A stretch of 64,000 nucleotides of DNA, taken from NCBI GenBank assembly GCA_945877765.1, contig CAMDWQ010000011.1, forward strand, positions 2,641-66,640, read 5' to 3'. Source of the stretch: Candidatus Omnitrophota bacterium (GTDB lineage: Bacteria; Omnitrophota; Gorgyraeia; 2-02-FULL-51-18). The notes beneath the pieces were generated by a model. That model saw nothing but the letters and a program-made list of their open reading frames with translations. It was not told the origin of the DNA and ran no database searches. Below, in pieces: positions 32,260 to 48,744 of the stretch. The position numbers and the translations under genes were made by a program. Numbering within the stretch: position 1 is the first letter of the stretch; each line of letters begins with the position of its first letter.

Positions 32260-32468
32260 GAAAAGAATACGATTTAACCAAACTAAAGAGCCGCCGTAAT
32301 CCATACGCCAAGGCGCTCAAAAGGCAAGTGACGATCCGTATTGGAAACGACGTGATCCATTATTTTAAAGAAATGGGCAACAAAACAGGAGTGCCCTATC
32401 AAAGCCTGATCAACTTATACCTGAGAGATTGCGTGGATTCTCATCGTGTGTTGAAGTGGGCTGCGTAG
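32256..32468 (+). CDS. brnA: BrnA-family antitoxin
   Basis: ATG overlaps the brnT TGA in an ATGA context. MRKEYDLTKLKSRRNPYAKALKRQVTIRIGNDVIHYFKEM... is a CopG/RHH-like BrnA fold. Confidence 0.65.
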   Translation: MRKEYDLTKLKSRRNPYAKALKRQVTIRIGNDVIHYFKEMGNKTGVPYQSLINLYLRDCVDSHRVLKWAA

Positions 32469-32722
32469 TTCTTGATTGAAGATGAACGAATAAAAGTAAA
32501 AGGGGTCAAGTCACCCATTGACCGCACCCCTCACTTATAAAAAAAGGAGCACCCCATGCCCGAAGGCGGATTCTTAGTAAAGTTTGACGGTAAAGAAGCA
32601 TTTCGCTGCTATTTTGTCTCGTTTGATTATGACCAGCTGCAATATACCGTCAACAACAAGGAAACGCATAAACTTCCCAAGGTGAAAAATATAACCATTA
32701 CAAGAGAAGATGACCCCATCTC

Positions 32723-34183: not shown

Positions 34184-34262
34184 CCCAAAAAGGGACACGT
34201 TAACTCACGAGAGAGCATGGATTTTTTTGTTCTTTTTGACCCGCTCAGGGTTGGGGCATATA
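34167..34262. repeat. partial copy of the 177-bp MITE (left arm plus core only)
   Basis: ccccgtccccatgacccaaaaagggacacgttaac...ggatttttttgttctttttgacccgctcagggttgggg.atatactga matches 55076-55175. The right terminal repeat is absent. Confidence 0.65.
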
Positions 34263-34381
34263 CTGACTATGTTGACCCCGCTTTAAGGTCACAATTTGTG
34301 ACCTTGAATGCTTGGCCTCTGACAGGATCCACCCAAACTTGAGATGCCAATTTGGCATCTCAAACTTTCTAGCTGATACCT

Positions 34382-34858
34382 TCAAAAGCGCTTCGGCGGT
34401 TCTTCATTTTTGGGTTTATCCTCCACGAGCATTTTGATCGCTTTGAATACAACCTGAAACTGCTGGTCGTATTTTTTCTCCAACTCATCCACGCGGATTC
34501 TTAGGTCTTTGTGAGTGATTGCCAATTCACGTAATTTCATAAATGTGCGCATGATCTGGATATTTACTTGTATAGCCTTCTTACTATTTAAAACGCTGGA
34601 GAGCATCGCCACGCCTTGTTCTGTAAATGCATAAGGGCTTGCGCGGCGAATGCCACCCCAACTTGAAATCACAAATTGTGATTTCAAGTTCTCAAATTCA
34701 TTATTCGTTAGCTGAAACATGAAATCATCTGGAAATCTATCTTTATTACGCTTAACCGCCTGGATCAGTGAACGAACTTCTACATCGTAAAGCTCTGCCA
34801 AGTGGGTACTGAGCATGACTCTTTGGTTTCTTAGTGTAAAAATATATTTTTCTGTCAT
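34382..34858 (-). CDS. ORF6N-domain protein (paralogue 1)
   Basis: ATG at 34858 with AAGGAGGG RBS. LRNQRVMLSTHLAELYDVEVRSLIQAVKRNKDRFPDDFMFQLTNNEFENLKSQFVISSWGG is ORF6N-type. Confidence 0.6.
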   Translation of the reverse strand: MTEKYIFTLRNQRVMLSTHLAELYDVEVRSLIQAVKRNKDRFPDDFMFQLTNNEFENLKSQFVISSWGGIRRASPYAFTEQGVAMLSSVLNSKKAIQVNIQIMRTFMKLRELAITHKDLRIRVDELEKKYDQQFQVVFKAIKMLVEDKPKNEEPPKRF

Positions 34859-35156
34859 AAAACCCTCCTTACCATACAGGACGACACAGACCCCCTTTTT
34901 CGTCAAAAAAATATCAGGATTTTTGCTATCGGTTAACTCATTTCCAACGGAAATTGGAGGTCACAATTTGTGACCTCCAATGTTGGGGTCTGTGGAGGAC
35001 TGCTTCAGGGATTTGAACCGGTCACAATTTGTGACTAGTTCGTTTTGGCCATTGGTCGAGACGCGAGTACAGATGACACATTTTTTCATGGCGGTATTTG
35101 CGCGAGCCGTCCCAACTTGATGTCCCAAATTGGAACATCAAGCCTGCAAAATATCC

Positions 35157-35693
35157 TTACTCTGGCCTCGCGTGAAATCCAATAGTCCTTTTTCGTTTCT
35201 GTTTAAGAGGCTCTTCAATCTCTTTGATCGTTTCGAACACCACTTTAAACTGAGAGTCATATTTCCTCTCAAGTTCTTCGATCTTCTTCTGAAGGTCCTT
35301 ATGATTCAGGATATATTCTTTTAGCTTGGTAAATGTGCGCATAATTTGAATATTTACCTGGATGGCGCGCTTGGAGTTAAGAACCGAGGATAACATCAGA
35401 ATTCCATGCTCAGTAAATACCCTAGGCCTTTTACGAAGGCCGCCCCAACTTGATGTCCCAAATTGGGATATCAAGTTTTTGAACTCCTGTTCACTGAGCT
35501 GAAACATAAAATCCTCCGGGAAGCGATCGGAATTTCTCAAAACATTCCGGTTTAATATACGTGTTTCCACGTCGTAGAGGGCGGCAAGGTCTTTATCAAA
35601 CATTACCTTTTTGCCTCTGATGAAATATATTCTTCTCTCAATCGTGTCATGAGAAAGAAACGTTGAAACCTGGATAGATTTATTTTTTTGCAT
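35157..35693 (-). CDS. ORF6N-domain protein (paralogue 2)
   Basis: ATG at 35693 with GGAGG RBS. IRGKKVMFDKDLAALYDVETRILNRNVLRNSDRFPEDFMFQLSEQEFKNLISQFGTSSWGG aligns with paralogue 1 over its whole length. Confidence 0.6.
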   Translation of the reverse strand: MQKNKSIQVSTFLSHDTIERRIYFIRGKKVMFDKDLAALYDVETRILNRNVLRNSDRFPEDFMFQLSEQEFKNLISQFGTSSWGGLRKRPRVFTEHGILMLSSVLNSKRAIQVNIQIMRTFTKLKEYILNHKDLQKKIEELERKYDSQFKVVFETIKEIEEPLKQKRKRTIGFHARPE

Positions 35694-35821
35694 GGTAAGT
35701 CCTCCTACTCTACTTGACGACACAGACCCCCCTTTTCGTCAAAAAAATATCAGGATTTTTCTATCGGTTAACCTATTTCCAAAGGATTGACCGTCCCGAC
35801 CCAGGCGGGTAGACTGTCTGC

Positions 35822-36214
35822 ATGCCCCAATCCACCTCGAAGAGTCCTGCAACTGACATCATTAGCCTCCAGAAAAAAATCCTCCAATTCCGTGACGCCC
35901 GCGATTGGAAACAATTCCACAATCCCAAAGACGTAGCCCTCTCTCTAGTCTTGGAAGCCACCGAGGTCATGGAACATTTCCAGTGGAAAACTCCGGAAGA
36001 AATTAAAAAATACCTCCAAACCCACACCCCTGACATCGCCGCGGAATTAGCGGATGTTTTTTATTGGGTGCTTTTGATGAGTCATGATCTGGGGATTGAT
36101 ATGGGGGAAGCTCTGGAGAAAAAATTGAAAGTGAATGCATTGAAATATCCCGTCAAAAAAGCCAAGGGCAAGCACAGTAAGTACAATAAGGCATTCAATG
36201 GGAGGGGACGATAA
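35822..36214 (+). CDS. MazG-like nucleotide pyrophosphohydrolase (small all-alpha NTP-PPase)
   Basis: LQKKILQFRDARDWKQFHNPKDVALSLVLEATEVMEHFQWK...ELADVFYWVLLMSHDLGIDMGEALEKKL: the E..E...E..D metal-binding arrangement of MazG/YpjD-like proteins. Confidence 0.55.
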   Translation: MPQSTSKSPATDIISLQKKILQFRDARDWKQFHNPKDVALSLVLEATEVMEHFQWKTPEEIKKYLQTHTPDIAAELADVFYWVLLMSHDLGIDMGEALEKKLKVNALKYPVKKAKGKHSKYNKAFNGRGR

Positions 36215-36218
36215 GCAC

Positions 36219-37037
36219 ATGAATCTCACAAAAATCTCGCAAAAGATTTGGCAAATAGCCGGTCTTGTCGCGTGCGCTTTATTTTTGTTAGGCACTTTGG
36301 CGATTGTTGTTGGCATCGGTTTTGCGGTTTTTCAATATAAAACACATCATGTTAATGGCATTGCGGTAGACCCGATGGAGGACAAGGGAAACCTGAAAGT
36401 CACAGCTGAATATGGCTTGCCTTTGCCATTAGAAGGGTCCGATTTTTATATGATTCCTGTCACGCTTGAAAAGAAAAAACACGGACAAGCGCGGGAAGCG
36501 TTTAGCGAAGTAGCCTATAGAAGTAGGTATGATAGCTATAGTAGCGGCAGTTACTCCTCTTATTCGTGGGGGCCTTATTACAACCTCGTGTTTATCAACA
36601 AGAAAACAGGTGAATCGCGGCCACTTCTTACTCAAAAAGGGTTTATCAATGGCGTTTATTTGCCCGAAAAAAAATACGATAAGAAAGACACTGAAATCAA
36701 ACCAACATTTCTACTGCTTAAGATTGCTACCGCGGACACGAATAATGACGGTGTGATCAACGAAAAAGACGCTTCTGCGGGATTTATTGCCAGCATCGAT
36801 GGGACAAAGCTGACGCAAGTCACACCTGATAATACTCAAATGAAATGGTGGTCTTATGATTTGGCCTCACAAAGACTTTTTGTGGAAATAATTCATGATG
36901 TAAACAATGACAAAGAGTTTGATTGGGATGACCCGCAAACAGTTTTAAGCGTAAACGTTCTCGACCCAAAAATTGCCCAGGAATTTGTTTCGGCAGAAAT
37001 TAAAAATAAAATCGAAGCATTACTGCTTAAAAAATAA
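36219..37037 (+). CDS. hypothetical membrane-anchored protein
   Basis: ATG at 36219 after a GGGAGGGGA RBS. One TM helix (IWQIAGLVACALFLLGTLAIVVGIGFAV), a Ser/Tyr-rich low-complexity stretch (SRYDSYSSGSYSSYSWGPYY) and a DTNNDGVINEKD Ca-binding-like loop. Confidence 0.4.
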   Translation: MNLTKISQKIWQIAGLVACALFLLGTLAIVVGIGFAVFQYKTHHVNGIAVDPMEDKGNLKVTAEYGLPLPLEGSDFYMIPVTLEKKKHGQAREAFSEVAYRSRYDSYSSGSYSSYSWGPYYNLVFINKKTGESRPLLTQKGFINGVYLPEKKYDKKDTEIKPTFLLLKIATADTNNDGVINEKDASAGFIASIDGTKLTQVTPDNTQMKWWSYDLASQRLFVEIIHDVNNDKEFDWDDPQTVLSVNVLDPKIAQEFVSAEIKNKIEALLLKK

Positions 37038-37489: not shown

Positions 37490-40027
37490 GTGGACAAATT
37501 TAATATACTGATCGCTGCTCGCGCCAAACACACTCCGTTCAAAAATTTGGCTTTGGTAAGCCCTTTCGGAATTGTAACCAATCATTGGCTTGTTCTTATA
37601 AACGTTCTGCTTTCATGTGAGGAGGATTTTAGCGATCCTAATATTGATTTATTGAATGAACTGGCTGTGGGTGACTTAATTCAAATTGATGGTAAACGAG
37701 TCTGTTTCGGGGGAATTAGAGAAACGGATCGCGGGCGCTCGATAGGATTTTATGAAACTGGGAAAAAGGGCAAGGCAGGACCATGTTATACATGGTTATC
37801 TGAAAAAGATATCCGGGGAAGAATAGCGCCGTACGCGGGGATGGCCAAAAACCCCCAGCGCTTCACAGGTAAAAAAGCACGAGCCGCAATAGGACACAAT
37901 TTATTCGCAGCTTTACACGGAATCAATGAATTCCAACCGAATATCAAGACTTCATCATTAGTTATAACGGAAAAAAAGTCTTACATAGAGGAATTGCAGA
38001 ATTTAGAAATTCATTTAGCTTATGACGTTAGTACGCTTAAGTTTCCCTTTTGTGAAGCGATCCCTGCTGCGGCATACTCTACCAACAATAAATTTAGTCG
38101 TATAGCGGCTAAGAAGAACGATAATCGACCTCTTTTGCTCAAAATTGTTTCGTCTCCGGAAGTTGGAATAGAGTTATGCCAAAACGATAAAAATATACAA
38201 ACGGTAATTATAGACGGCGAATCAAAAATATTACGAAATTTTCTTGAGCTTAAGAGGATAAAAGAGATAGAGTCAGTAAAAAATATTTACATAATTCTTT
38301 CTAATAACATAGATCAGAAATCACTAAGAGAATTGCAACAGCTAGGTTTCTTTATTTGGAAGTGGAATGAAGAGTTTATTCTAAGCATAGGTACGGAGTC
38401 TTTGCCAGATAATCGTCAAAATGGCAATATCGATACGGGGGCCATTCAGAATAAACTAATCAGTAACCTGTTAAACAAGACATCAGAAATGGTGGAAGTG
38501 GATTACCCTTCCAAGGAAGCAAAAGCCTTAATCAATGAGTATTCAGAGATATTATTCTATTTAAAAGATTTTATCGATGAGCCGCACGCTGGAGAAATTT
38601 TTAGAGAGTTCATTTGCCAGGGTTATGGGTATCGCAGTTTTATACTTTCGCCGCTGGCAGGACTTCCATCCTGCCATGACCGTGTTAATAGATATATCGA
38701 ACAACTAAAGCTCCTTATACCCGTCTTAAAGGAGCTCAATAAAGCCACTGCCTTACACCAAAGATTGGATAGACTAGCGATAGCGATTGATCGGTTTAAA
38801 GATTTATTTTGTCTCGGTGTTAACCAAAAAAATGAAATGATAAAAAAACATCTTCATTCGGAAAGGACCGGGATCGGATTGGTATTAAAGAACTTACCGG
38901 CTAATAGCGTTCTAGATGAATTCGGCAAATTTATCGGCAAAGGCCTTTCATATCGATTTCTAAAGCTCTCCGACTTAAAAAGTTTTCACCCCTTCGATAG
39001 CTTGTTGTTTACTGGGTGGCTGGGAAGCAACCATCCCTATTACTTAAATTGCCCTTTAGCACCTAAGCATTTATATTTCTTGTACGACATAGAGAAAAAA
39101 ATTTATGAAATCATGCAGAGCCGGCAGCAATTGCATAACTTTCCTGAGCCCTTGGAAAGAGTTGCAGCTCTTTTAGATCTAACTCCAAGCGAGGTATTAT
39201 CGCTGGCGCCATCGTTAGCCCCTTCCAACCTTGCTTCAGTTGAGGAATTTGTTAAAAATAAAAGAGAAGTCAATTTAAACGATCTCTATGACGCTATCTG
39301 CTCAAAGAGAATCCCGTCATATTCTGGAACCGGAGAGATCGGAGAAGAATTGCTCCCTTCAAAATGCATTTTTTTTGAAGATGATCAATACGGCTTCTTT
39401 TCTGAAAATTACATAGCCAAAGTGTTGGATAGATCTAAGGAGGAAGTAATCGATAAGGATCTTAGCGTGCTCGCTGAGGGAGATGAGCTTTTGTTTTTGG
39501 AAGACTCCAAGAGAGATTTATTTCAGGTCATGGCTATAGAACTTCATAAAAAAATGCCGGATAGGATAGAAGAAGCAAAGATTTGGAGGGATAGTCTTAA
39601 ACGATTAAAAACAGAAAAGAATTACTCTGTTGAGAAACTTAATTCTGTACTTAGAGAAAATGGAGTTATTCAAGAGATCTCGACTTTGAAGGGATGGGTA
39701 AGTGATAAAGAAATGATAGCACCTCAATCACTTGACCGCCTGATAGACGTTCTCTCGACTCTATTAAATGATGCGACTATAGGGTCTAAAAAGAAATTAA
39801 TCATAACCGCTTGCAGACGAATTCGTGCGTCACATAACATTTTGGGAAGGTATCTGGCGAAACAATTAATTGGATCGTTTAATAAAGGCGCTAACACGGT
39901 ACAGCAAGATTTGGCAGCAAGCGCCGAAGAATTGAGGAAACACGTATATACGCTGCAAATAAATAAATTGTCCGATGACGTTCAGGCTGTTCCGGTATCG
40001 ATTCTTAACAAGGTATTTGAGCTATAA
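37490..40027 (+). CDS. 845-aa protein of unknown function, first gene of the candidate defence operon (DruF/DrmE-like by position and size only)
   Basis: No motif recognised by eye. Its stop (TAA) is directly followed by the ATG of the next gene. Confidence 0.4.
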   Translation: MDKFNILIAARAKHTPFKNLALVSPFGIVTNHWLVLINVLLSCEEDFSDPNIDLLNELAVGDLIQIDGKRVCFGGIRETDRGRSIGFYETGKKGKAGPCYTWLSEKDIRGRIAPYAGMAKNPQRFTGKKARAAIGHNLFAALHGINEFQPNIKTSSLVITEKKSYIEELQNLEIHLAYDVSTLKFPFCEAIPAAAYSTNNKFSRIAAKKNDNRPLLLKIVSSPEVGIELCQNDKNIQTVIIDGESKILRNFLELKRIKEIESVKNIYIILSNNIDQKSLRELQQLGFFIWKWNEEFILSIGTESLPDNRQNGNIDTGAIQNKLISNLLNKTSEMVEVDYPSKEAKALINEYSEILFYLKDFIDEPHAGEIFREFICQGYGYRSFILSPLAGLPSCHDRVNRYIEQLKLLIPVLKELNKATALHQRLDRLAIAIDRFKDLFCLGVNQKNEMIKKHLHSERTGIGLVLKNLPANSVLDEFGKFIGKGLSYRFLKLSDLKSFHPFDSLLFTGWLGSNHPYYLNCPLAPKHLYFLYDIEKKIYEIMQSRQQLHNFPEPLERVAALLDLTPSEVLSLAPSLAPSNLASVEEFVKNKREVNLNDLYDAICSKRIPSYSGTGEIGEELLPSKCIFFEDDQYGFFSENYIAKVLDRSKEEVIDKDLSVLAEGDELLFLEDSKRDLFQVMAIELHKKMPDRIEEAKIWRDSLKRLKTEKNYSVEKLNSVLRENGVIQEISTLKGWVSDKEMIAPQSLDRLIDVLSTLLNDATIGSKKKLIITACRRIRASHNILGRYLAKQLIGSFNKGANTVQQDLAASAEELRKHVYTLQINKLSDDVQAVPVSILNKVFEL

Positions 40028-41746
40028 ATGGAAATACGATTAATACCACCCTATTTAAGTAGCTCGGTTAAAAGCAACGCGGAAAAAAGAACGTTTGCTG
40101 CAATCCAGTTAATTTCTGCGCCAGCTTACTGTTTTCATTCGCTAAATCTGCCTGAGAAAATAAAGAGAAAACCCGAATGCGAAATTGATTTTCTTTTCCT
40201 AAGCGTCAGGGGAATTATGTGTCTTGAGGTAAAGGGTGGATCTGTACGTCGAGTTGACGGGGTGTGGCAATTTGAAAATCGGTTTGGCGAGGTGACAAAG
40301 AAAATCGAGGGCCCATTCGAACAAGTTCAGAACGCGATGTACGCATTAAAACAACGAATAAAGAATAAATATGGAGCTGATTCAAACCTATTGAAATGTT
40401 TATTTGGGTACGGAGTCATATTTCCAGATACTGATTTTAAAGATGCATCAGCCGAATGGGACCTTGAAATTGTATGTGACAAGATTCGATTCAATAGACC
40501 CATTTCTGACTATATAACAGCATTACATGAATATTGGGCTTTAAAGAAACCTCAATCAAGGCCCCTTACGAACAATGAAGTGGATGAGTTGGCTCAATAT
40601 CTGAGGGGTGATTTTCACTGTGTTGTCCCATTAAAAGATTATATCGGAAACATCAACGAAGAGCTCCTGTCTCTAACCGGTGAACAGCTTAGTCTTCTAG
40701 CGGGACTCGACCAAAATCCTAGGCTAATCATTAACGGGCCGGCCGGGAGTGGCAAGACTCTCATGGCTGTAGAGAAAGCTAAATGTGAGGCGGCAAGGGG
40801 ACAAAAAACGCTTCTAATTTGCTCTAGCGATATTCTAGCCGAGCATCTCCAGCATATGTGTTCGGAATATATCAATCTCTCGGTTACAAATATATTTGCG
40901 CTGTTTAAATCAATTCAAACTTGCGGAGATTTATCCGATATAAAGAAACCGATCCGTGAGAATGAATATAAAATAGATTTACCCCTTATTCTCAAACGAC
41001 AAAAGTTGATTGATAGCGCACATCTATACGACTCGATAATAGTTGATGAAGCCCAAGATATTTTAAAAAGTACGTTTCTAGAAGTTTTAAATGGGTGTCT
41101 TAAGGGAGGATTTCAGAACGGTAGATGGACGCTTTTCTACGACAAATTCCGTCAAGCCGGTCTTTACGGTGATTCCGACAGCGGCGTTGCGTCTATTCTG
41201 GAAAAATTCAAGCCAACCCTATTCAATCTAGGTACGAACTGTAGGAATACCAAGAAAATTGCCGAAGAAACGGAAATGATAACGAATTATATTTTCCAGA
41301 AAATCCTTCACGACGGAGGTCGAAAATCTCGGGTTGAGTTTTATAAGGATATTGAAGAAAGGAACAGCACCCTTTTGTCAATTATGTCAGACTTGGCCAA
41401 ACAAGATATTTCCAAGGGTAGACAAATAATATTAACGCTTGAAAATGAAACTAATTTTTTAAATTCGGTGTCAGGGATACACGGTTATAAGTTTCAATCA
41501 TTGTCCAAATTCGACCAATTTAAGTCTGATCAACATCTCAATTTGGTTTGCGAAGCAAAGAGGTTCAAGGGACTTGAGAGTGATATAGTTATTATTCCCG
41601 AAATAAAAAGTTTTGATCAAACGGTGGAGTTATATGTAGCTATGACACGGGCAAAAGCGATGCTTTTTCTACTTATCGATTCCAGCTTGAAGAAGCAATA
41701 TCAAGAGCGCTTTAAACTGTACGTGGAAAGGAAAGTCTTAATATGA
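40028..41746 (+). CDS. NERD-domain + SF1 (UvrD/AAA_19-like) helicase/nuclease
   Basis: N-terminal ECEIDFLFLSVRGIMCLEVKGGSV (NERD-type EVKG motif). Walker A GPAGSGKTLMAV, Walker B IVDEAQDIL, C-terminal YVAMTRAKAMLFLLID (SF1 motif VI). The ATG follows the previous stop with zero gap. Confidence 0.6.
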   Translation: MEIRLIPPYLSSSVKSNAEKRTFAAIQLISAPAYCFHSLNLPEKIKRKPECEIDFLFLSVRGIMCLEVKGGSVRRVDGVWQFENRFGEVTKKIEGPFEQVQNAMYALKQRIKNKYGADSNLLKCLFGYGVIFPDTDFKDASAEWDLEIVCDKIRFNRPISDYITALHEYWALKKPQSRPLTNNEVDELAQYLRGDFHCVVPLKDYIGNINEELLSLTGEQLSLLAGLDQNPRLIINGPAGSGKTLMAVEKAKCEAARGQKTLLICSSDILAEHLQHMCSEYINLSVTNIFALFKSIQTCGDLSDIKKPIRENEYKIDLPLILKRQKLIDSAHLYDSIIVDEAQDILKSTFLEVLNGCLKGGFQNGRWTLFYDKFRQAGLYGDSDSGVASILEKFKPTLFNLGTNCRNTKKIAEETEMITNYIFQKILHDGGRKSRVEFYKDIEERNSTLLSIMSDLAKQDISKGRQIILTLENETNFLNSVSGIHGYKFQSLSKFDQFKSDQHLNLVCEAKRFKGLESDIVIIPEIKSFDQTVELYVAMTRAKAMLFLLIDSSLKKQYQERFKLYVERKVLI

Positions 41747-44700
41747 TCCCAAATCCTTTAAATCATGAACAAGTTAGAACGGATTTGTTGGATTATATGC
41801 GCAAAGAGCTAGTTGGCCCTCAATCAGACGATGAAATTCTTGACGGCGATAACGTGCCTCAGATCGATCACTACATAGCAGGTGTTCTTTACCCTCAATC
41901 TAAAACCGACTCAGAAGATGATCGATTAGCAACTCAGCCTGATATTAGCGAAGAAGATGCAGATATTGCCGATGATCTAGAAACTAAAGTATACGGGTTA
42001 TCCAATATCTATATGCCTGCATCAATGGGTATCAGTTGCCAGCTAGCCATACCAGCCAAAGAAGGTGTTCAATACAAAGTTACGTGCGCCCGGTATGAGT
42101 TACAGAAGACAGAGATCAAGAATGCTAGCGGGCGTTCCACGCATTGGGTGCGCATACCGATTAAGAAAGAGGGTTCAATAACTCTTCAAGAATTGGCGAA
42201 AGGGAAAGTCACCATAGAAATCGAGAAAGGTCTCGAGCTTGTTTGTATTTTTAAACCCGATAAGGGGTACCTTACAGTAAGTTTAGTTAACGAAAATGAG
42301 TACGATGTTTCCGTAGAAGAGAAAGTGAAACCTAGAAAACTAACTCCAAACTGTTTTTTCCAGTCAGAGTTGGTTCTAACCGGTGCCGGCGACGATCATT
42401 TTCTTCCAAGAAAACCGTATGAATGTCCGGATGGCAAAGAACGAACATACGAAATGTTGTTTCGAAATAAGCCTACCTTTGCCATTGGTCATGGCTGCGC
42501 TGCCGACTGGGATAAAAGCCGCTCAAATAGAACGAACTCGGTAAAAACGACTACGTTTCCGGTTGAATCTGTGCCAAGCGTCGATTTTGAAGTTATTCAG
42601 GATAAAAAAATTCTTCAGGTACTGGACATGAAACGACTTTCAGAGTCTCTTCATCAAAAGGAAGAAATTTTGTCTGATTTGCGCCAATTTGCCAAAGAAT
42701 ACGATCTATGGATAGACCGAATCGAGACGAGCGACGTCGACCCGGTATTTTACGACGTTGCTAAAGAAAATATTATTAAATGCAGAATGTCGTTCGAGCG
42801 GATAGAGGCAGGAATTCAAAAGTTAGAGGATGACCCAGAAGTTTTTGAAGCGTTCGTTCTCATGAATAAAGCGATGGTTCTGCAGCGGCTTGGCCATGAC
42901 CCAAAAGAACCAAGCACCTGTCGCTGGAGACCCTTCCAGCTTGCATTTATCTTACTGAGTGTCGTCGGTTTAATTGATGATCAGTCATCGGACAGAAATA
43001 TAGTTGATTTAATTTGGTTTCCTACCGGAGGCGGAAAAACAGAAGCATATCTTGGGATTACAGCTTTCATTATTTTCTACCGAAGAATCAAATATAAAGC
43101 GTTGGGGGGCGGTACTGCCGCAATCATGCGCTACACTTTAAGGCTTTTAACAACTCAACAACTTCAACGCGCCACTAGGCTAATGTGCGCCTGCGAAATT
43201 ATTAGAAAACAAAATTCAATAAGATACGGTAGCGAGGTAATCAGTTCGGGAATTTGGGTAGGGGGCGATACAACTCCCAACACTTCGTCTGTTTATCGAG
43301 AGCAATTAGAAGACGGTGAATTTGTAAAAATTCTTTCAATGTGCCCGTGGTGTGAATCGGCGCTTCAATACAGTAAGAGGACAAATCCGAAAATATATTG
43401 TAAAAATGAAAATTGTAAATTCTCAAAAGGCTTACCAATATTATTTGTGGATGATGATATATACGAGAACCCACCCACTTTCTTGGTTAGCACTGTCGAT
43501 AAATTTGCTAATCTTTCTTTAAAAGCGGACCCAAAAAATAAGAAAAAGGATGCCGCCCGGATATTTGCTGCGGATGCGGGCAACCAAAAAATAGCCCCCT
43601 CCTTAATTATTCAGGACGAATTACATTTAATATCAGGTGCCTTAGGTACTTTAGTTGGATTATTCGAGATCGTTATAGAAGAGTTGTGCTCACTCAAAAA
43701 AATTAAGCCAAAAATTGTCGCAGCGACAGCGACCATAAGAGGAGCGGAGGAACAAACAAAAAATCTTTTCAATAGAGAAGTATTTCAATTTCCATCGCCT
43801 GGGATAAGTATTGAAGATTCGTTCTTTGCCGTGGAAAAAACTTCAAAGGAAAATCGGTTATACGTTGGAGTACAGGCATCTGGGCACACCTTTACGACAA
43901 CAGAAGTCAGGGTATTTTCAGCATTATTACAAGGAATCTATGAAATTAAATCGGCATATGAGGAGGGAAAAACTCCAGAGGAGATGGCTGCCGTGCAGGA
44001 ACTCATAGACCCGTACTGGACGATGATTGCCTATTTCAATAGCGTTAGACAACTAGGTAAGTGTCATAGCCTGCTGGATCAAGATATTGCAACGCAAATG
44101 GTGGAGTTATCAAAGCGATCCGGCTCTCGCAGACGTTTTATCCCGGACAGGGGCATTAGAGAAATGACCGGAACAAGAAAAACGAAAGATATTGCAGAAA
44201 TTTTAGCCGAACTATTTTATCCACTAAATAGCAAGAAAGCGCTTGATATAGTTCTGACCACAAATATGTTTTCCGTTGGGGTAGACATATCGCGTTTGGG
44301 AGCTATGGTAATTACAAGCCATCCAAAAACAAATGCAGAATATATTCAGGCATCCAGTCGGGTTGGCAGAAAATATCCCGGAATTATTTTTACGGTTTAC
44401 GATTTTTCACGATCGAGAGACCGCTCTTACTATGAGAATTTTGTCGGGTACCATCGGGCACTCTATAGGCATGTCGAGGTTTCTAGCTTAACACCTTTTT
44501 CAATGGCGTCTGTAGATAGAGGGATGAAGAGCGTCATTATCTCCTTATTGCGACAAAGATTTCGTTCGATGGGAGTTGATGATTTAAACACACTTTCTGC
44601 AGATAAACGAGACAAGGTGATTGAAGAGATAAGAGGACTGATTCTTAAAAGAGTGAACGCAGTTGATCAATCCGAATTACGTATGGTTACTTTAAAGCTT

Positions 44701-46716
44701 ACCAGTTGGTTTGTAGAGCTAAAAGAATTCTTGTCCTCACGGGCAAACGCAGAATATAAAGAGCTAATCTATAACCCATCTCTGGGCTCGCCGAGGCAGC
44801 CGTTCCAATGGGATGTTTTATACTCAATGAGGAATGTGGATGAAAGCGCCCGAATCAAAGTAGGAGTTATCAATGGTCAAGAAATATGGGATGAGGACAA
44901 ATCGTGGAACGAAATAAGAAAAAATCAATTAATTGTTCCTTTTGGCCCGGGAGCTATTGTTGAGCTCGAGAACTCAAAAAGCGCGCTCGTTTCTAGATGG
45001 CACGGCAAGGGCGACCCGGTAAGCGATATGCCAGATGAACGATTTATTCAACGCCTATCTCGGTTAAGAGTGAAAGAATTAGTAGCTCCGCCATCGGCAA
45101 AACAAAAGCCGATAGGGGCAGTTCTATTTCCCGCATGGGGTTTTTGTAAAAGCTGTAGAAAATTCGGCGAAATAAAAAATACATTTAAATTTGATGCCCG
45201 CAATGGCAAAGAACGGTGGTCTTGTGAGTGTAGTGGAAGGTCAAAATTATCGGACGCTAAAAAATTTATGAATGCAGTCGTGCAAATAAAATTCATCGCC
45301 GTGTGTTCCGACGGGCATATAGACGACTTACCTTGGGGCGAGCTTCTTCATAAAAGCCCTAGCTATATGAATGACGGAGCTCTCCATCAGTTTAAGTACG
45401 AGTCCTTCGGCGGCTCTCTTGGTGAAGAAAGCTTGTCATGTTCATGCGGAATTGCTCCGTTTCGACTCAATCAGTTGAAAAAGGCAATAACGGGACAACT
45501 TTGTAAAAATCGTCCGTTAACGGACTACAGCACGCAAGAAGGCGTTTGCCCTCGTAATATCGAAATGAAGCATAGGGGAGCATCAAGTACGTACTTTCCC
45601 GTGGTTAGAACTTCGATATATTTGCCACCGCAGGATGATGCTGGTCTTAATAAAGTTTTGGTTAGGCTAAGAAACACCTTAGAGGATGCAGGGGGCACAA
45701 TTCCTGAGGATCAAAAAAGAATAATAGTAGAAAATAACCTTATCCAAATTGGTGTTGTTAAAGAGATCGCATGGCCCACATATCTCCGATTTATTGAACC
45801 CGTTGACATCGCTCAGGCGACAAATGTTGACGAAGAGATTAAGTACAGGGAAGAAGAGTATAAAGTATTCTCCGCGCCCGCAGTCAATCAGCAAGTTTTT
45901 CTAAAAGATCTAGTTTTGGATGAGGTTAGCCCAAGCGTATTGCGGTCTAAAAAATATCCTGAAGAAATTTCTGATATGAAATTAATTAAGACCTTAAAGG
46001 AAACTAGGGCAATTCTGGGCTACACGCGAATCTATCCTATCGACTTTGAAGAAGGTGAGGGCGCAGAGGGTAGGCGCGCTGGTATGATTTCATTGATCAA
46101 AAATTATAAGATTCCTGCCATTGAGGTTCGAGGCGAAGGCATATTCTTTAGACTGAATCCAAGCATGATTAGTGATTGGGCAAAAAAATCAAACGTTGTC
46201 AAACGAGTTAGAATTATTAACGAACACGAACGACTCTCGGGCAGACAATATGGAGTTGGCGTAAAAAATGTTACACCTGCTTTTATCTTAATTCACACAT
46301 TAGCCCATGCCTTAATTAGATATTTGGGAATGGAATGCGGTTACGGGACGGCTTCCCTGCGTGAAAGAATATACTGTCATCAGGTTGAAGGAGATATTAG
46401 AATGGCCGGCGTGATGATTTATACTGCATCCGGAGACGCGGCAGGGACTCTCGGAGGGTTAGTCCGGCAGGGCAGGGAAGACCGCTTTCCGACTTTGTAT
46501 AGGAATGCGATCCATTCAATGGATTGGTGCTCTTCTGACCCGCTTTGTATTCAATCCAAAGGGCAAGGAAGAGACGGTTTGAATGTGTCGGCCTGCCATG
46601 CTTGCGCACTATTACCTGAGACTAGTTGCGAGTTTCAAAATGTTTACTTAGATAGAGCGCTTTTAAACGGCACCATTGATGACCCCAAAATTGGTTTTTT
46701 TAAAAGGTATGAATAG
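41743..46716 (+). CDS. 1657-aa SF2 DEAH-type helicase with Zn-ribbons and a Cys-rich DUF1998-like C-terminal domain (DruE/DrmA-DrmB-like)
   Basis: Motif I WFPTGGGKTEAY, motif II IIQDELHLISG, motif VI QASSRVGRK. Zn-ribbon CPWCESALQY...CKNENC. Cys-rich mid region (CKSCRKF...CECSG, CSDGH, CSCG). C-terminal MDWCSSDPLCIQS...ACHACALLPETSCEFQNVYLDRALL. Overlaps the previous gene by 4 nt. Confidence 0.65.
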   Translation: MIPNPLNHEQVRTDLLDYMRKELVGPQSDDEILDGDNVPQIDHYIAGVLYPQSKTDSEDDRLATQPDISEEDADIADDLETKVYGLSNIYMPASMGISCQLAIPAKEGVQYKVTCARYELQKTEIKNASGRSTHWVRIPIKKEGSITLQELAKGKVTIEIEKGLELVCIFKPDKGYLTVSLVNENEYDVSVEEKVKPRKLTPNCFFQSELVLTGAGDDHFLPRKPYECPDGKERTYEMLFRNKPTFAIGHGCAADWDKSRSNRTNSVKTTTFPVESVPSVDFEVIQDKKILQVLDMKRLSESLHQKEEILSDLRQFAKEYDLWIDRIETSDVDPVFYDVAKENIIKCRMSFERIEAGIQKLEDDPEVFEAFVLMNKAMVLQRLGHDPKEPSTCRWRPFQLAFILLSVVGLIDDQSSDRNIVDLIWFPTGGGKTEAYLGITAFIIFYRRIKYKALGGGTAAIMRYTLRLLTTQQLQRATRLMCACEIIRKQNSIRYGSEVISSGIWVGGDTTPNTSSVYREQLEDGEFVKILSMCPWCESALQYSKRTNPKIYCKNENCKFSKGLPILFVDDDIYENPPTFLVSTVDKFANLSLKADPKNKKKDAARIFAADAGNQKIAPSLIIQDELHLISGALGTLVGLFEIVIEELCSLKKIKPKIVAATATIRGAEEQTKNLFNREVFQFPSPGISIEDSFFAVEKTSKENRLYVGVQASGHTFTTTEVRVFSALLQGIYEIKSAYEEGKTPEEMAAVQELIDPYWTMIAYFNSVRQLGKCHSLLDQDIATQMVELSKRSGSRRRFIPDRGIREMTGTRKTKDIAEILAELFYPLNSKKALDIVLTTNMFSVGVDISRLGAMVITSHPKTNAEYIQASSRVGRKYPGIIFTVYDFSRSRDRSYYENFVGYHRALYRHVEVSSLTPFSMASVDRGMKSVIISLLRQRFRSMGVDDLNTLSADKRDKVIEEIRGLILKRVNAVDQSELRMVTLKLTSWFVELKEFLSSRANAEYKELIYNPSLGSPRQPFQWDVLYSMRNVDESARIKVGVINGQEIWDEDKSWNEIRKNQLIVPFGPGAIVELENSKSALVSRWHGKGDPVSDMPDERFIQRLSRLRVKELVAPPSAKQKPIGAVLFPAWGFCKSCRKFGEIKNTFKFDARNGKERWSCECSGRSKLSDAKKFMNAVVQIKFIAVCSDGHIDDLPWGELLHKSPSYMNDGALHQFKYESFGGSLGEESLSCSCGIAPFRLNQLKKAITGQLCKNRPLTDYSTQEGVCPRNIEMKHRGASSTYFPVVRTSIYLPPQDDAGLNKVLVRLRNTLEDAGGTIPEDQKRIIVENNLIQIGVVKEIAWPTYLRFIEPVDIAQATNVDEEIKYREEEYKVFSAPAVNQQVFLKDLVLDEVSPSVLRSKKYPEEISDMKLIKTLKETRAILGYTRIYPIDFEEGEGAEGRRAGMISLIKNYKIPAIEVRGEGIFFRLNPSMISDWAKKSNVVKRVRIINEHERLSGRQYGVGVKNVTPAFILIHTLAHALIRYLGMECGYGTASLRERIYCHQVEGDIRMAGVMIYTASGDAAGTLGGLVRQGREDRFPTLYRNAIHSMDWCSSDPLCIQSKGQGRDGLNVSACHACALLPETSCEFQNVYLDRALLNGTIDDPKIGFFKRYE

Positions 46717-47818
46717 AAAAAATTCTAAACTAAACATAACGGCGGTTGACCTCTTCTGCGGAGCGGGAGGCCTGACGCGCGGCCTGCTTGATTCCGGGAT
46801 CAAAGTTAAAATCGGTGTCGATTTCGATGGACAGTTTAAAGATACATATGAAAAAAATAATCATCCTTCGCGATTCTTGCAATGTGACATTAGAAAACTA
46901 AAAACCAAATATTTGGAAGAATGCCTAAAATTAGAAGAAACAGATTTATTTTTGCTCTCCGCATGTGCTCCGTGCCAACCCTTTAGCCGCCAAAATTCTA
47001 AACATCATTACGATAGACGTAAATCCCTATTGCTAGAAGTAGTTCGAATTCTTGACGAGCTAAAACGTAAGCCCGATTTTTTATTTTTTGAGAATGTTCC
47101 ACATATTAACAGATCTGAAAGGAGCACTGTTCTCAGAAGACTTAGGAAGGCACTTGTCAAAATGGGCTATTCCTTTGATTCGAAAATTGTGGATGCAGCA
47201 ATATATGGCGTCCCACAACGGAGAAAGAGGTTTATTCTAATAGCCGTTAAGAAAAAAATCGCTGGTAACACCGTCCGTTTTCCTGAAGAACTGTTTGGAA
47301 AAGATCGAAATCAGCCATATCGTACAGTGAGAGAGGCCATAGGTGCTTTCCCGCGCATAAGAGCAGGCCAAACTCACGCGCAAGTAGCAAATCATCAAAC
47401 TCAGTCATTGACTACAAAGACTCGGATGCGATTGCTATTAACGCCTAAAAATGGGGGTTCTCGCCGAGATTGGCCCGATCGCGTAAAATTAAAATGCCAC
47501 GAAGAGCATGTTGGGCATTGGGATGTTTACGGTCGAATGAAATGGAATGAGCCCAGCCCCACTCTTACGTGTCGATGCACGTCAATTTCAAATGGGCGTT
47601 TTGGACACCCAACTCAGCTGAGAGCAATTTCTTTGCGTGAAGCAGCAGCGCTGCAAACATTTCCGAACGATTATCAATTTTACGGAAGTTTTAAAGCTAT
47701 AGCAATGCAAGTAGGTAATGCCGTTCCCGTTCTGTTGGCTGAAGCATTTGGTAAGCATTTTATTGAAATCGGCAACGGTAAGTCCTTTGCCACAAGGACG
47801 GAGAAGAATACCGAATAA
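46709..47818 (+). CDS. DNA (cytosine-5)-methyltransferase
   Basis: Motif I DLFCGAGG, IV PCQPFS, VI FFENVP, VIII QRRKRFILIA, X GNAVPV. The ATG at 46709 overlaps the upstream gene by 8 nt. Confidence 0.85.
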   Translation: MNRKNSKLNITAVDLFCGAGGLTRGLLDSGIKVKIGVDFDGQFKDTYEKNNHPSRFLQCDIRKLKTKYLEECLKLEETDLFLLSACAPCQPFSRQNSKHHYDRRKSLLLEVVRILDELKRKPDFLFFENVPHINRSERSTVLRRLRKALVKMGYSFDSKIVDAAIYGVPQRRKRFILIAVKKKIAGNTVRFPEELFGKDRNQPYRTVREAIGAFPRIRAGQTHAQVANHQTQSLTTKTRMRLLLTPKNGGSRRDWPDRVKLKCHEEHVGHWDVYGRMKWNEPSPTLTCRCTSISNGRFGHPTQLRAISLREAAALQTFPNDYQFYGSFKAIAMQVGNAVPVLLAEAFGKHFIEIGNGKSFATRTEKNTE

Positions 47819-47955: not shown

Positions 47956-48744
47956 TTGCGCTTAAATTTTGACGTATCAGTTGCCAGTCATTTCAGGAGC
48001 GCATCCCAAAGAGCGCGAGTTTTAACAGAAGCTTGGGTTGATAGCCAGGTCTACTGTCCTAACTGTGGGCTTCTCGGTATAGATAAATATCCTAATAATA
48101 ATCCCGCCGCCGATTTTCACTGCTCGAATTGCCATGAAGACTATGAGCTCAAAAGTAAAAATTCTAAAATTGGAACAAGAGTTGTCGACGGAGCCTACCG
48201 AACATTGATTCAAAAGCTGCGAGGCAATACCAATCCCAATCTATTTTTGTTAAATTACGATCCACGAAGCGCCGAGGTTCTAAATTTTTTTGTGATCCCA
48301 AAGCACTTTTTTATTCCTGAAATTATTGAAAAAAGGAAGCCGCTTGCACCTACCGCTCGCCGTGCCGGTTGGGTTGGTTGTAACATTCTTCTGCATGATA
48401 TCCCGCCAACCGGAATAATTTATTTTGTAAAAAATCGTATTATTGAGTCAAGGGTAAAGGTGCTTTCCTGTTGGAAAAAGACACTGTTTTTGAGAGAAGA
48501 GAAAGAGCTCGTCGCCAAAGGCTGGCTTTTGGATGTGATGCGCTGCGTCGAGCGGCTTAACCAAAGTTTTTCACTTGATGAAGTTTATTCTTTTGCGGGA
48601 GAGCTGGGCATAAAACACCCTGAGAATCGACATATCAAGGATAAAATTCGTCAGCAGTTGCAGGTTCTGCGTGAGAGAGGCTATCTCGAGTTTATCGCGA
48701 ATCCGGGGACACGTACCGAATTCCTGAGGGGCTTAGTCTATTAG
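47956..48744 (+). CDS. Zn-ribbon protein, candidate nuclease partner of the methyltransferase
   Basis: CPNCG-x17-CSNCHEDYELKSK (Zn-ribbon followed by a D...E.K-like triad). The C-terminal half is helical (winged-helix-like?). The last ~12 codons (ANPGTRTEFLRGLVY) are encoded by the MITE. Confidence 0.35.
   Translation: MRLNFDVSVASHFRSASQRARVLTEAWVDSQVYCPNCGLLGIDKYPNNNPAADFHCSNCHEDYELKSKNSKIGTRVVDGAYRTLIQKLRGNTNPNLFLLNYDPRSAEVLNFFVIPKHFFIPEIIEKRKPLAPTARRAGWVGCNILLHDIPPTGIIYFVKNRIIESRVKVLSCWKKTLFLREEKELVAKGWLLDVMRCVERLNQSFSLDEVYSFAGELGIKHPENRHIKDKIRQQLQVLRERGYLEFIANPGTRTEFLRGLVY

What the first reader, a model, noticed from the sequence alone, without database searches (positions are those of the whole stretch)
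41743..46716. 1657-aa helicase rich in Zn-ribbon/Cys clusters with a DUF1998-like tail
Besides helicase motifs I, II and VI it has at least four Cys clusters (CPWCESALQY...CKNENC; CKSCRKF...CECSG; CSDGH...CSCG; MDWCSSDPLCIQS...ACHACAL...SCEF). The last cluster has the arrangement I associate with DUF1998, the domain shared by DrmB, DruE and MrfA. The middle ~500 aa between the helicase core and the tail have no assignable function and could contain a nuclease.
Basis: partly seen in the sequence, partly recalled or inferred. Interest (0 to 1): 0.6.

Follow-up and report, generated by a model that had tools for sequence, protein, structure and literature searches.

The report
Single-chain DrmA–DrmB DISARM helicase
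The 1657-residue protein is the two core proteins of the DISARM anti-phage system (helicase DrmA and its zinc-binding partner DrmB) joined into one chain, and it sits in a DISARM-like operon where a NERD nuclease-helicase takes the place of the usual phospholipase-D nuclease.

Summary
The ORF (41743-46716, +, 1657 aa) is real, and so are the helicase motifs and the Cys clusters. It is a head-to-tail fusion of DrmA (res 1-~1045) and DrmB (res ~1046-1657). A profile of 20 fused homologs aligns colinearly to 7S9V chain A 131-1307 and chain B 3-617. AF2 models of the two halves hit the same chains (TM 0.84 and 0.65).

The "unassigned middle 500 aa / possible nuclease" is not supported: that stretch is the DrmA C-terminal helical domain plus the DrmB N-terminal region with its zinc sites.

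The operon is DrmE, NERD+SF1 helicase, DrmAB, C5 methylase. It lies in a low-GC island of a Candidatus Omnitrophota genome, and three relatives at 34-47% identity have the same gene set.

Fusion is rare: 1 of 80 genome loci, none seen in metagenome loci, about 19 clusters in 1.84 billion representatives. It is also polyphyletic and arises by simple stop-codon loss.

The more interesting result concerns the NERD helicase-nuclease. It is a dedicated partner of this DrmAB clade, adjacent to DrmA/B in 19 of 23 loci seeded with the NERD helicase itself and co-evolving with DrmA (r=0.70). PLD DrmC is almost absent (2 of 80 loci).

Verdict: a new variant of a known system, of moderate interest.

The parts
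37490..40027 (+). DrmE-family protein (845 aa), first gene of the operon. Its stop codon is directly followed by the next gene's ATG.
   Evidence: NCBIfam DrmE_fam 246 bits (cut-off 80); the DISARM_DrmE equivalog model reaches only 51 of the 250 bits required. Pfam DrmE_C E 1.4e-12. No solved relative. Conserved in the same position in L004, L005, L006 and L027.
40028..41746 (+). NERD (PD-(D/E)xK) nuclease domain fused to an SF1 UvrD/Upf1-like helicase (572 aa). Its stop overlaps the DrmAB start (ATGA).
   Evidence: Pfam NERD 17-113 and UvrD_C_2. PADLOC RTasNERD-Hel E 2e-45 over the full length, Nhi E 7e-11. Conserved E52, D54, E67-x-K69, Walker A GPAGSGKT 237-244, Walker B DEAQD 340-344. Profile hits in PDB: HelD/helicase IV, SLFN11, Upf1, UvrD, GajB.
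41743..44877 (+). DrmA part of the fusion (res 1-1045): N-terminal chassis, RecA1, RecA2 and a C-terminal helical domain. It lacks the EVE-like first ~130 residues of class 1 DrmA.
   Evidence: NCBIfam DISARM_DrmAS res 11-1038, 870.6 bits (cut-off 950). PADLOC DrmA E 1e-204. 7s9v_A E 9e-124. Profile positions 3-1049 align to chain A 131-1307. AF2 pLDDT 88.3, Foldseek 7s9v_A E 1.8e-68, TM 0.84.
41896..42012 (+). Acidic, variable, low-confidence loop (res 52-90), positional equivalent of the autoinhibitory trigger loop of Serratia DrmA (176-232).
   Evidence: The profile alignment places it opposite chain A ~178-230. 12 D/E against 3 K/R here; net charge -4 to -15 in all 20 fused homologs; 16 D/E against 4 K/R in Serratia. 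It contains the only internal AF2 segment with pLDDT below 50 (res 59-74).
43027..43041 (+). Helicase motif I (Walker A) GGGKT, res 429-433.
   Evidence: invariant.
43342..43416 (+). Zn-ribbon insertion in RecA1: C534, C537, C553, C558.
   Evidence: Invariant in 20 and in 75 homologs. Aligned to the CPWC...C..C of Serratia DrmA.
43615..43626 (+). Helicase motif II DELH, res 625-628.
   Evidence: invariant D625, E626, H628.
44347..44370 (+). Helicase motif VI QASSRVGR, res 869-876.
44854..44910 (+). Fusion junction (res ~1038-1056): the DrmA tail after SMRNVD, about 15 linker residues, then the DrmB head IRKNQL.
   Evidence: Alignment with split relatives shows DrmA ending and DrmB starting exactly here. 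Low pLDDT on both sides. In 7S9V the DrmA C-terminus wraps the DrmB N-terminus.
44878..46713 (+). DrmB part of the fusion (res 1046-1657): the DrmB N-terminal region with Zn sites through to DUF1998 (the OB-CON-DUF1998 array of Bell et al. 2025; sub-domains not delimited here).
   Evidence: DrmB_fam 372.7 bits. PADLOC DrmB E 1e-66 over the full model. 7s9v_B E 8e-57. Profile positions 1055-1668 align to chain B 3-617, E 3e-169. AF2 pLDDT 73; Foldseek 7s9v_B E 7e-31, MrfA 1.4e-3.
45145..45447 (+). Cys/His clusters of the DrmB N-terminal region: C1135, C1138, C1163, (C1188), H1203, C1233, C1235.
   Evidence: Conservation. Aligned with Cys/His of Serratia DrmB. Bravo et al. report extra metal sites in DrmB. 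Which residues share a metal was not determined here.
46528..46629 (+). DUF1998/MZB Cys4 zinc site: C1596, C1602, C1618, C1621 (plus invariant H1619 and C1629).
   Evidence: Pfam MZB. Aligned to DrmB C559/565/581/584. Invariant.
46679..47818 (+). C5-cytosine DNA methyltransferase (DrmMII-like). The start is ATG 46679 or 46709; either overlaps the end of DrmAB.
   Evidence: Pfam DNA_methylase E 7e-57. PADLOC MTase_II E 2e-88, DrmMII E 2e-51. Gene call 46679. Sequence.
47956..48744 (+). DpnI-like methyl-directed restriction enzyme. A neighbour in the island, not part of the conserved cassette.
   Evidence: Pfam DpnI E 1.6e-72 and DpnI_C. PADLOC mREase_II E 7e-100. Absent from L004-L006.

Best explanation
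The gene encodes a single-chain DrmAB, the sensor and motor of a DISARM-like restriction-modification-coupled anti-phage system.

Shown by homology:
- Residues 1-1045 are a short-form DrmA (SF2/YprA-type RecA1-RecA2 motor with intact motifs I, II, III and VI and a Zn ribbon in RecA1).
- Residues 1046-1657 are a full DrmB ending in the Cys4 DUF1998.
- The two are joined by about 15 flexible residues, at the place where in the Serratia heterodimer the DrmA C-terminus wraps the DrmB N-terminus.

Inferred mechanism, transferred from the Serratia DrmAB work:
- An acidic disordered loop (res ~52-90) occupies the DNA path.
- Single-stranded DNA with a free 5' end from an invader displaces the loop.
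- ATP-driven translocation follows.
- The co-transcribed C5 methylase marks host DNA as self.

Inferred from gene context:
- DNA destruction is carried out by the translationally coupled NERD (PD-ExK) nuclease/SF1 helicase encoded just upstream. In this clade it replaces the PLD nuclease DrmC.
- DrmE is required but its role is unknown.

The fusion itself is a recent, recurrent event (loss of the DrmA stop). It fixes 1:1 stoichiometry and probably does not change the mechanism.
For: Identity of the two halves.

Fusion is real and conserved: identical protein in 3 assemblies; fused orthologs at 47, 44 and 34% identity in the same cassette.

Junction is a simple concatenation and agrees with the structural description of the interface.

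Trigger-loop equivalent.

Operon coupling: adjacent or overlapping genes.

NERD-helicase as a dedicated partner:
- A NERD-domain helicase lies next to DrmA/B in 29 of 80 genome loci, and some SF1 helicase in 62 of 80. PLD is present in 2 of 80.
- In a scan seeded with the NERD-helicase itself, 19 of 23 loci with at least 5 kb on both sides have DrmA/B adjacent.
- Distance matrices of DrmA and the NERD-helicase correlate: r=0.70, with 0 of 2000 permutations reaching that value.
- One ORF (P0018) fuses the helicase C-terminus to DrmA-DrmB.
- Catalytic residues are conserved.

Literature: drmC is dispensable and does not co-purify with DrmAB; drmA, drmB and drmE are essential in class 2.
Against: - No experiment exists on this or any fused or NERD-type system.
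- The DrmA half scores below NCBI's equivalog cut-off (870.6 against 950), and DrmE passes only at subfamily level, so mechanistic transfer from Serratia (class 1) or Bacillus (class 2) is an extrapolation.
- The trigger-loop equivalence rests on position, charge and low pLDDT, not on sequence.
- 4 of 23 well-flanked NERD-helicase loci lack DrmAB, and a distantly related NERD-type nuclease-helicase (Nhi; my own knowledge of the literature, not checked here) is reported to defend on its own.
- The P0018 triple fusion is a single contig-end ORF and could be a frameshift error.
- A PLD protein lies 3.3 kb upstream (32723-34183).
Confidence: 0.8

Rival explanations
1. The DrmAB fusion is as described, but the NERD-helicase is an independent, Nhi-like single-gene defence 'embedded' in a DrmC-less class 2 DISARM operon. 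It would then not be the system's effector.
For: Genes embedded in DISARM/BREX/RM operons are common and mostly co-oriented (Payne et al. 2024). PADLOC finds a weak Nhi similarity, E 7e-11. 4 of 23 well-flanked NERD-helicase loci have no DrmAB. Its position varies, before DrmA or after DrmB.
Against: 19 of 23 loci seeded on the NERD-helicase carry DrmA/B next to it. Co-evolution with DrmA: r=0.70, Mantel 0 of 2000. ATGA overlap with DrmAB. It is conserved in the same cassette down to 34% DrmAB identity across phyla. PLD DrmC is missing from nearly all these loci.
Confidence: 0.25
2. The long ORF is an artefact: two adjacent genes (drmA, drmB) merged by a sequencing or assembly error at the stop codon, or a decaying locus.
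For: In many split relatives drmB follows drmA in the same frame after a single stop codon, so one base error could produce a fusion.
Against: The identical 1657-aa product is found in three independent assemblies. Fused orthologs at 47, 44, 36 and 34% identity keep an open junction of differing sequence. About 19 fused cluster representatives exist in 1.84 billion. All catalytic motifs are intact.
Confidence: 0.03
3. It is a housekeeping YprA/MrfA- or Lhr-type repair helicase, or a Druantia DruE / Dpd DpdJ helicase, rather than a DISARM component.
For: These families share the helicase plus DUF1998 fused architecture (Bell et al. 2025). MrfA and Lhr appear as distant fold matches.
Against: PADLOC DrmA 680 bits and DrmB 224 bits, against DpdJ 18 bits and no DruE hit. 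MrfA reaches only E 7.7e-4 by profile. TM 0.84 to DrmA against 0.32 to MrfA and 0.31 to Lhr. The flanking DrmE and C5 methylase are DISARM class 2 genes. The gene lies in a low-GC island.
Confidence: 0.02
4. The PLD protein 3.3 kb upstream (32723-34183) is the system's DrmC acting in trans, so this would be a complete canonical class 2 DISARM.
For: PLDc_2 domain E 6e-24. Weak DrmC model hits: PADLOC E 8e-13, NCBIfam DrmC_I 57 bits. Same strand.
Against: The score is far below the DrmC cut-off of 133. The protein is 486 aa with an unrelated C-terminal half. It is separated from the operon by two opposite-strand ORF6N genes, a MazG-like gene and an orphan gene. No PLD is found in the three orthologous loci L004-L006.
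Confidence: 0.05

Closest known systems
DISARM class 2 (Bacillus paralicheniformis type: drmE-drmA-drmB-drmC-drmMII; Ofir et al. 2018, as summarised)
   Same: DrmE-family protein, short-form DrmA, DrmB with DUF1998, and a C5-cytosine methylase in one co-oriented operon within a defence island.
   Different: DrmA and DrmB are one polypeptide. There is no PLD DrmC in the operon. A NERD/SF1 helicase-nuclease sits between DrmE and DrmAB. DrmA and DrmE score below NCBI's equivalog cut-offs.
Serratia sp. SCBI class 1 DrmAB complex (PDB 7S9V/7S9W; Bravo et al. 2022)
   Same: Colinear homology over DrmA 131-1307 and DrmB 3-617, the RecA1 Zn ribbon, the DUF1998 Cys4 site, and an acidic loop at the trigger-loop position. 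AF2 models superpose with TM 0.84 and 0.65.
   Different: About 29% and 25% identity in the structure-based alignments. It lacks the N-terminal ~130-residue (EVE-like) domain. The loop is shorter (39 against 55-57 residues). It is covalently fused. The partners also differ: here DrmE, NERD-helicase and Dcm; there DrmD, DrmMI and DrmC.
Naturally fused YprA-family helicases (MrfA/YprA, DpdJ, DruE)
   Same: Helicase core and OB-CON-DUF1998 array in one chain, which Bell et al. 2025 describe as the usual state of the family.
   Different: By sequence this protein belongs to the DISARM branch, the one branch said to be 'consistently' split. Its fusion is secondary, nested among split relatives, and it has no C-terminal nuclease domain.
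NERD-helicase defence proteins (Nhi; DRT-associated RTasNERD-Hel) and TALON (YprA homolog plus NERD nuclease)
   Same: The neighbour gene has the NERD PD-(D/E)xK domain plus an SF1 helicase. TALON is a precedent for pairing a YprA helicase with a NERD nuclease.
   Different: Here the NERD domain is fused to an SF1 helicase and paired with DrmE, DrmAB and Dcm. There are none of TALON's TPR-CSD or TBP genes. Similarity to Nhi is weak and partial.
DISARM-like operons with alternative nucleases (ShdA/RmuC embedded in DISARM-like loci; MacDonald et al. 2023)
   Same: A precedent that DISARM-like operons swap or add non-PLD nucleases.
   Different: A different nuclease family: RmuC there, NERD-SF1 helicase here.

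Membership tests
DISARM (Ofir et al. 2018 definition) | drmA: helicase-domain gene (pfam00271) | tested here: met
   Helicase_C 30.8 bits against a cut-off of 23.5. PADLOC DrmA E 1e-204. 7s9v_A E 9e-124. NCBI's DrmAS equivalog cut-off is narrowly missed, 870.6 against 950.
DISARM (Ofir et al. 2018 definition) | drmB: DUF1998 (pfam09369) protein | tested here: met
   MZB 31.9 bits against 24.2. DrmB_fam 372.7 against 240. 7s9v_B E 8e-57. Cys4 site conserved.
DISARM (Ofir et al. 2018 definition) | drmA and drmB encoded as separate adjacent genes (stated as consistent for the DISARM branch by Bell et al. 2025) | tested here: not met
   One uninterrupted ORF. The same holds in P0002-P0005.
DISARM (Ofir et al. 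2018 definition) | drmC: PLD-domain nuclease (pfam13091) in the core triplet | tested here: not met
   No PLD in the operon. The only PLD gene is 3.3 kb upstream, scores below the cut-off (57 against 133) and is not conserved in the orthologous loci.
DISARM class 2 | C5-cytosine methylase drmMII (pfam00145) | tested here: met
   DNA_methylase E 7e-57. DrmMII models E 2e-51, although generic type II MTase models score higher.
DISARM class 2 | drmE present | tested here: met
   DrmE_fam 246 bits against 80. The DISARM_DrmE equivalog model is not met, 51 against 250.
DISARM class 2 as defined in PADLOC (needs DrmA, DrmB, DrmC, DrmE, DrmMII) | all five genes present | tested here: not met
   DrmC is missing and DrmA/DrmB are a single gene.
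DISARM (function) | protects against phage; methylase marks self | not testable with these tools
   Needs plaque assays and methylome sequencing.
DrmAB mechanism (Bravo et al. 2022) | autoinhibitory trigger loop occluding the DNA path | tested here: inconclusive
   A positionally equivalent acidic, variable, low-pLDDT loop at res 52-90. Function not testable here.
YprA/MrfA family (DUF1998 helicases) | SF2 core plus OB-CON-DUF1998 with a Cys4 zinc site | tested here: met
   MrfA 6znp_A is the second-best fold match to both halves.
Druantia DruE / Dpd DpdJ | best match to DruE or DpdJ models; C-terminal nuclease or ALBA domain | tested here: not met
   DpdJ 18 bits and no DruE hit at E<=1e-3. 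The protein ends with DUF1998.
Lhr-type helicase | winged-helix / Lhr C-terminal tail in place of DUF1998 | tested here: not met
   The tail is DUF1998. Lhr 5v9x reaches only TM 0.31 on the helicase core.

The most novel reading that the evidence does not exclude
The locus exemplifies a widespread but undescribed DISARM class in which a dedicated NERD (PD-ExK) nuclease/SF1 helicase, not PLD DrmC, is the effector recruited or licensed by DrmAB. The repeated DrmA-DrmB fusions, and one possible helicase-DrmA-DrmB fusion, show that the proteins act as one physical machine. If so, this class points to the long-missing DNA-destroying activity of DISARM-type systems.
Probability: 0.4. Interest if true: 0.65.

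Novelty: new variant of a known kind. Interest (0 to 1): 0.5.

Why it matters
How DISARM destroys invading DNA is still unknown. The nominal nuclease DrmC is dispensable and does not bind DrmAB. This locus offers two practical handles on that question.

1. A natural single-chain DrmAB, which is simpler to express, purify and image than the heterodimer, with fixed 1:1 stoichiometry.
2. A large set of DISARM-like operons (29 of 80 genome loci, and 19 of 23 NERD-seeded loci) in which a predicted-active NERD nuclease-helicase is the constant partner and PLD is absent. This gives a concrete, testable effector candidate.

It also corrects two points. The published statement that the DISARM branch is consistently split has exceptions. 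And current annotation rules mislabel such proteins: NCBI names a 1717-aa fused homolog 'DrmB family protein', and PADLOC's type II definition would reject the locus.

Tried and rejected
- Regex search for the HxK(x)4D PLD motif in 80 loci found almost nothing. A jackhmmer search seeded from a verified DrmC (L022) confirmed PLD in only 2 of 80 loci, so the absence is real and not a detection failure at that sensitivity.
- Search for an att repeat of the tRNA-Glu 3' end, to delimit the island: no second copy.
- Promoter and terminator scan of 36-49.5 kb: counts no higher than in shuffles, uninformative.
- Homolog search for DrmE returned only the query itself. DrmE has no PDB relative.
- The look-up of encoding contigs for the 2057-aa P0018: not on record, so its context could not be checked.
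- Cluster look-up gave no organism names. The host was inferred from GyrA instead.
- The supplements of Bell et al. 2025 hold no mention of NERD, UvrD or DrmE in DISARM-like classes. The Ofir et al. 2018 paper is not held in the library.
- Considered and rejected as explanations: DruE/DpdJ/Lhr/MrfA identity, assembly artefact, and the upstream PLD acting as DrmC (see rivals).

Full report
**1. Observation**

The window holds an uninterrupted ATG-initiated ORF at 41743-46716 (+) of 1657 codons.

Motif I GGGKT is at 429-433, motif II DELH at 625-628 and motif VI QASSRVGR at 869-876. The four Cys groups lie at 534-558, 1135-1165, 1188-1236 and 1593-1631.
- Cys clustering is only moderately beyond chance by composition. 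There are 8 close pairs against 3.4 expected, and 255 of 20000 shuffles reach that.
- Conservation makes the case. C534/537/553/558, C1135, C1233/1235 and C1596/1602/1618/1621/1629 are invariant in 20 homologs. C1138 is at 95% and C1163 at 85%. C1161 and C1188 are not conserved.
- The identical protein occurs in three independent assemblies.

**2. What the protein is**

Three profile libraries and the PDB agree that it is DrmA followed by DrmB in one chain.

- NCBIfam places DISARM_DrmAS on res 11-1038. It scores 870.6 bits, just under the equivalog cut-off of 950. DrmB_fam lies on res 1056-1642 with 372.7 bits against a cut-off of 240.
- PADLOC gives DrmA E 1e-204 and DrmB E 1e-66 over the whole DrmB model. 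DpdJ reaches only 18 bits and there is no DruE hit.
- Pfam finds Helicase_C and MZB/DUF1998 at 1520-1621.
- phmmer against PDB hits only the two chains of the Serratia DrmAB complex: 7s9v_A at E 9e-124 and 7s9v_B at E 8e-57.
- A profile of 20 fused homologs aligns colinearly. Positions 3-1049 match chain A 131-1307. Positions 1055-1668 match chain B 3-617 (E 3e-169). No stretch is left over.
- AF2 models of the two halves match the same chains.
  - The DrmA part (pLDDT 88.3, pTM 0.89) matches 7s9v_A at E 1.8e-68, TM 0.84.
  - The DrmB part (pLDDT 73, pTM 0.75) matches 7s9v_B at E 6.9e-31, TM 0.65/0.74.
  - MrfA is the distant second match in both cases, and no nuclease fold appears.
- The DUF1998 cysteines C1596/1602/1618/1621 align with DrmB C559/565/581/584, the Zn site described by Bravo et al..
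- The other clusters correspond to the RecA1 Zn ribbon of DrmA and to the extra metal sites reported in the DrmB N-terminal region.

The '~500 unassigned residues, possibly a nuclease' is not supported.

**3. The junction**

Split relatives end DrmA 8-15 residues after a conserved SMRNVD motif. They begin DrmB about 10-15 residues before a conserved (I/V)R(K/R)xQL motif. The fused proteins simply run through, with about 15 variable residues in between.

In many split loci drmB follows drmA in frame after a single stop codon, so one substitution is enough to fuse them. In the Serratia structure the DrmA C-terminus (1296-1319) wraps the DrmB N-terminus, burying about 1850 A2. That explains why a covalent link is tolerated. 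Both AF2 models have low confidence at the ends that meet.

**4. How common is the fusion?**

- Among the 120 best database homologs, 22 are 1640-2057 aa long, the fused size range. 21 of them carry both parts in a direct check, and the 22nd is P0018.
- In 80 species-representative genome loci only one is fused (L037, Oleiphilus).
- In about 40 DrmAB-bearing metagenome loci none is fused.
- A junction-spanning query against 1.84 billion cluster representatives found 2104 hits. About 19 of the top 150 span the junction.
- A neighbour-joining tree of the DrmA core (193 sequences, 100 bootstraps) shows the fused forms are polyphyletic. The window's clade P0001-P0003 has bootstrap 100, P0004-P0005 has 100 and a 9-member clade (including Psychrobacter and Oleiphilus) has 100. 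There are also seven singletons.
- The nearest neighbours of the window's clade are split DrmAs, such as a Saccharibacteria locus (L027) with the same operon.

The fusion is therefore a rare, recurrent, secondary event inside a branch that Bell et al. 2025 describe as 'consistently' split.

**5. Context**

The gene is the third of four tightly packed genes.

- DrmE family, 37490-40027.
- A 572-aa NERD plus SF1 helicase, 40028-41746. It starts immediately after the DrmE stop, and its own stop overlaps the DrmAB start as ATGA.
- DrmAB, 41743-46716.
- A C5-cytosine methylase, 46679 or 46709 to 47818, overlapping the DrmAB end.

GC content is 0.38-0.43 here, against about 0.45-0.48 in the flanks.

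The cassette DrmE, NERD-helicase, fused DrmAB, (Vsr), C5 MTase recurs in three other contigs. Their DrmAB identities are 47, 44 and 34%.

The host is a Candidatus Omnitrophota bacterium, since its GyrA is 81-83% identical to named Omnitrophica MAG proteins. The island lies after tRNA-Glu, about 15-25 kb from dnaA-dnaN-gyrB-gyrA.

**6. The NERD-helicase**

- It has a conserved PD-(D/E)xK signature (E52, D54, E67-x-K69), Walker A (GPAGSGKT) and Walker B (DEAQD).
- It resembles HelD/helicase IV, Upf1, UvrD and GajB in its helicase part.
- In the 80 genome loci closest to this DrmAB, an SF1 UvrD-like helicase gene is adjacent in 62. It carries a NERD domain in 29. It sits either between DrmE and DrmA or directly after DrmB, where DrmC normally is. 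PLD DrmC is found in only 2.
- In the reverse test, 80 metagenome loci were seeded with a NERD-helicase profile. 43 carry DrmA/B, and 19 of the 23 with at least 5 kb on both sides do.
- Pairwise distances of DrmA and the NERD-helicase correlate across 30 loci: r=0.70, with 0 of 2000 permutations reaching that.
- One database ORF (P0018, cut at a contig end) joins the C-terminal part of such a helicase in frame to DrmA-DrmB.
- A methylase-less variant (fused DrmAB, UvrD-like helicase, unknown protein, NERD helicase) exists in Psychrobacter.

I conclude that the NERD-helicase is most likely a system component. It is the best candidate for the effector nuclease. The 'embedded independent Nhi-like gene' reading (concept from Payne et al. 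2024) remains possible at about 25%.

**7. Mechanism**

Shown by homology:
- an SF2 motor with intact ATPase motifs, a DrmB canopy with Zn sites, and a Dcm-type methylase.

Inferred from Bravo et al. 2022 and Aparicio-Maldonado et al.:
- An acidic loop blocks the DNA path until a 5' single-stranded end displaces it.
- Here the loop is res 52-90, with 12 D/E against 3 K/R.
- The loop is variable in sequence but always acidic in 20 homologs.
- It aligns opposite the Serratia trigger loop and contains the only disordered internal segment of the AF2 model.
- ATP hydrolysis then drives translocation, and methylation protects self DNA.

Inferred from context:
- The NERD-helicase degrades the engaged DNA, and DrmE has an unknown but probably essential role.
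- The N-terminal ~130 residues (EVE-like domain) of class 1 DrmA are absent.

**8. Comparison and novelty**

The locus works like a class 2 DISARM. It fails three items of the formal definition: separate drmA and drmB genes, presence of PLD drmC, and PADLOC's five-gene rule.

- Fused helicase-DUF1998 chains are the norm elsewhere in the YprA family.
- Alternative nucleases in DISARM-like operons have a precedent in ShdA/RmuC.
- A YprA plus NERD pairing has a precedent in TALON.
- Full-text searches found no description of a DrmE/NERD-helicase/DrmAB/Dcm class or of fused DrmAB. The library is incomplete, and Ofir et al. 2018 itself could not be read.

I rate it a new variant of a known kind, with interest 0.5. 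The protein itself is readily explained. The NERD-helicase partnership and the natural single-chain DrmAB are useful leads on the unresolved DISARM effector question.

Noticed in passing
window 21014-30629: The replication-origin gene set dnaA, dnaN, gyrB and gyrA lies in the window, with the cumulative GC-skew minimum at about 20-22 kb. The defence island therefore sits only about 15-25 kb from the origin.
   Followed up: partly
window 26802-30629: gyrA carries an intein with a homing-endonuclease domain (1275 aa; NF038098 and intein_Nterm hits). The closest GyrA homologs (88-94% identity) are about 828 aa and intein-free, so the intein is a recent, strain-level insertion.
   Followed up: partly
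window 30636-37037: After tRNA-Glu (30636-30710) comes a run of toxin-antitoxin and defence-type genes: BrnT/BrnA (31894-32468), a 486-aa PLD nuclease (32723-34183), two tandem ORF6N genes on the minus strand (34382-34906 and 35157-35723), a MazG-like gene (35822-36214) and a 279-aa orphan (36198-37037). No att repeat of the tRNA end was found.
   Followed up: partly
window 47956-48744: A DpnI-like m6A-dependent (type IIM) restriction enzyme lies 137 bp after the DISARM-like methylase. This pairs a defence against unmodified DNA with one against Dam-methylated DNA. It is not present in the orthologous loci.
   Followed up: partly
window 53435-54515: An overlapping HTH_3 (53435-53929) and DUF6036 nucleotidyltransferase-like (53922-54515) gene pair, possibly a toxin-antitoxin or small defence module.
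   Followed up: no
P0018 (ENA contig, 2057 aa, N-terminally cut): A single ORF joins the C-terminal ~165 residues of an SF1 helicase (27% identical to window NERD-helicase 396-556) in frame to DrmA-DrmB. It is either a possible triple fusion or a frameshift error. Its contig could not be retrieved.
   Followed up: partly
L089 8001-17500 (Psychrobacter sp. I-STPA10); L037; L087: A second, independent fused-DrmAB lineage has the operon DrmAB, 395-aa UvrD-like helicase, 532-aa unknown protein, NERD/AAA helicase, with no methylase or DrmE in view. NCBI names the 1717-aa fusion 'DrmB family protein'.
   Followed up: partly
L007-L086 (80 genome loci): Many loci (about 25-28, including the Streptomyces, Kitasatospora and Mycolicibacterium ones) pair split DrmA/DrmB with an upstream UvrD-like helicase (~650-800 aa) and a 1100-1900-aa ResIII/SNF2-like protein. 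This is another DISARM-like layout without a detectable PLD.
   Followed up: partly
L004 14988-15404; L005 10470-10886; L006 15228-15593: The orthologous cassettes carry a Vsr mismatch endonuclease next to the C5 methylase. The window's cassette has no Vsr gene.
   Followed up: no
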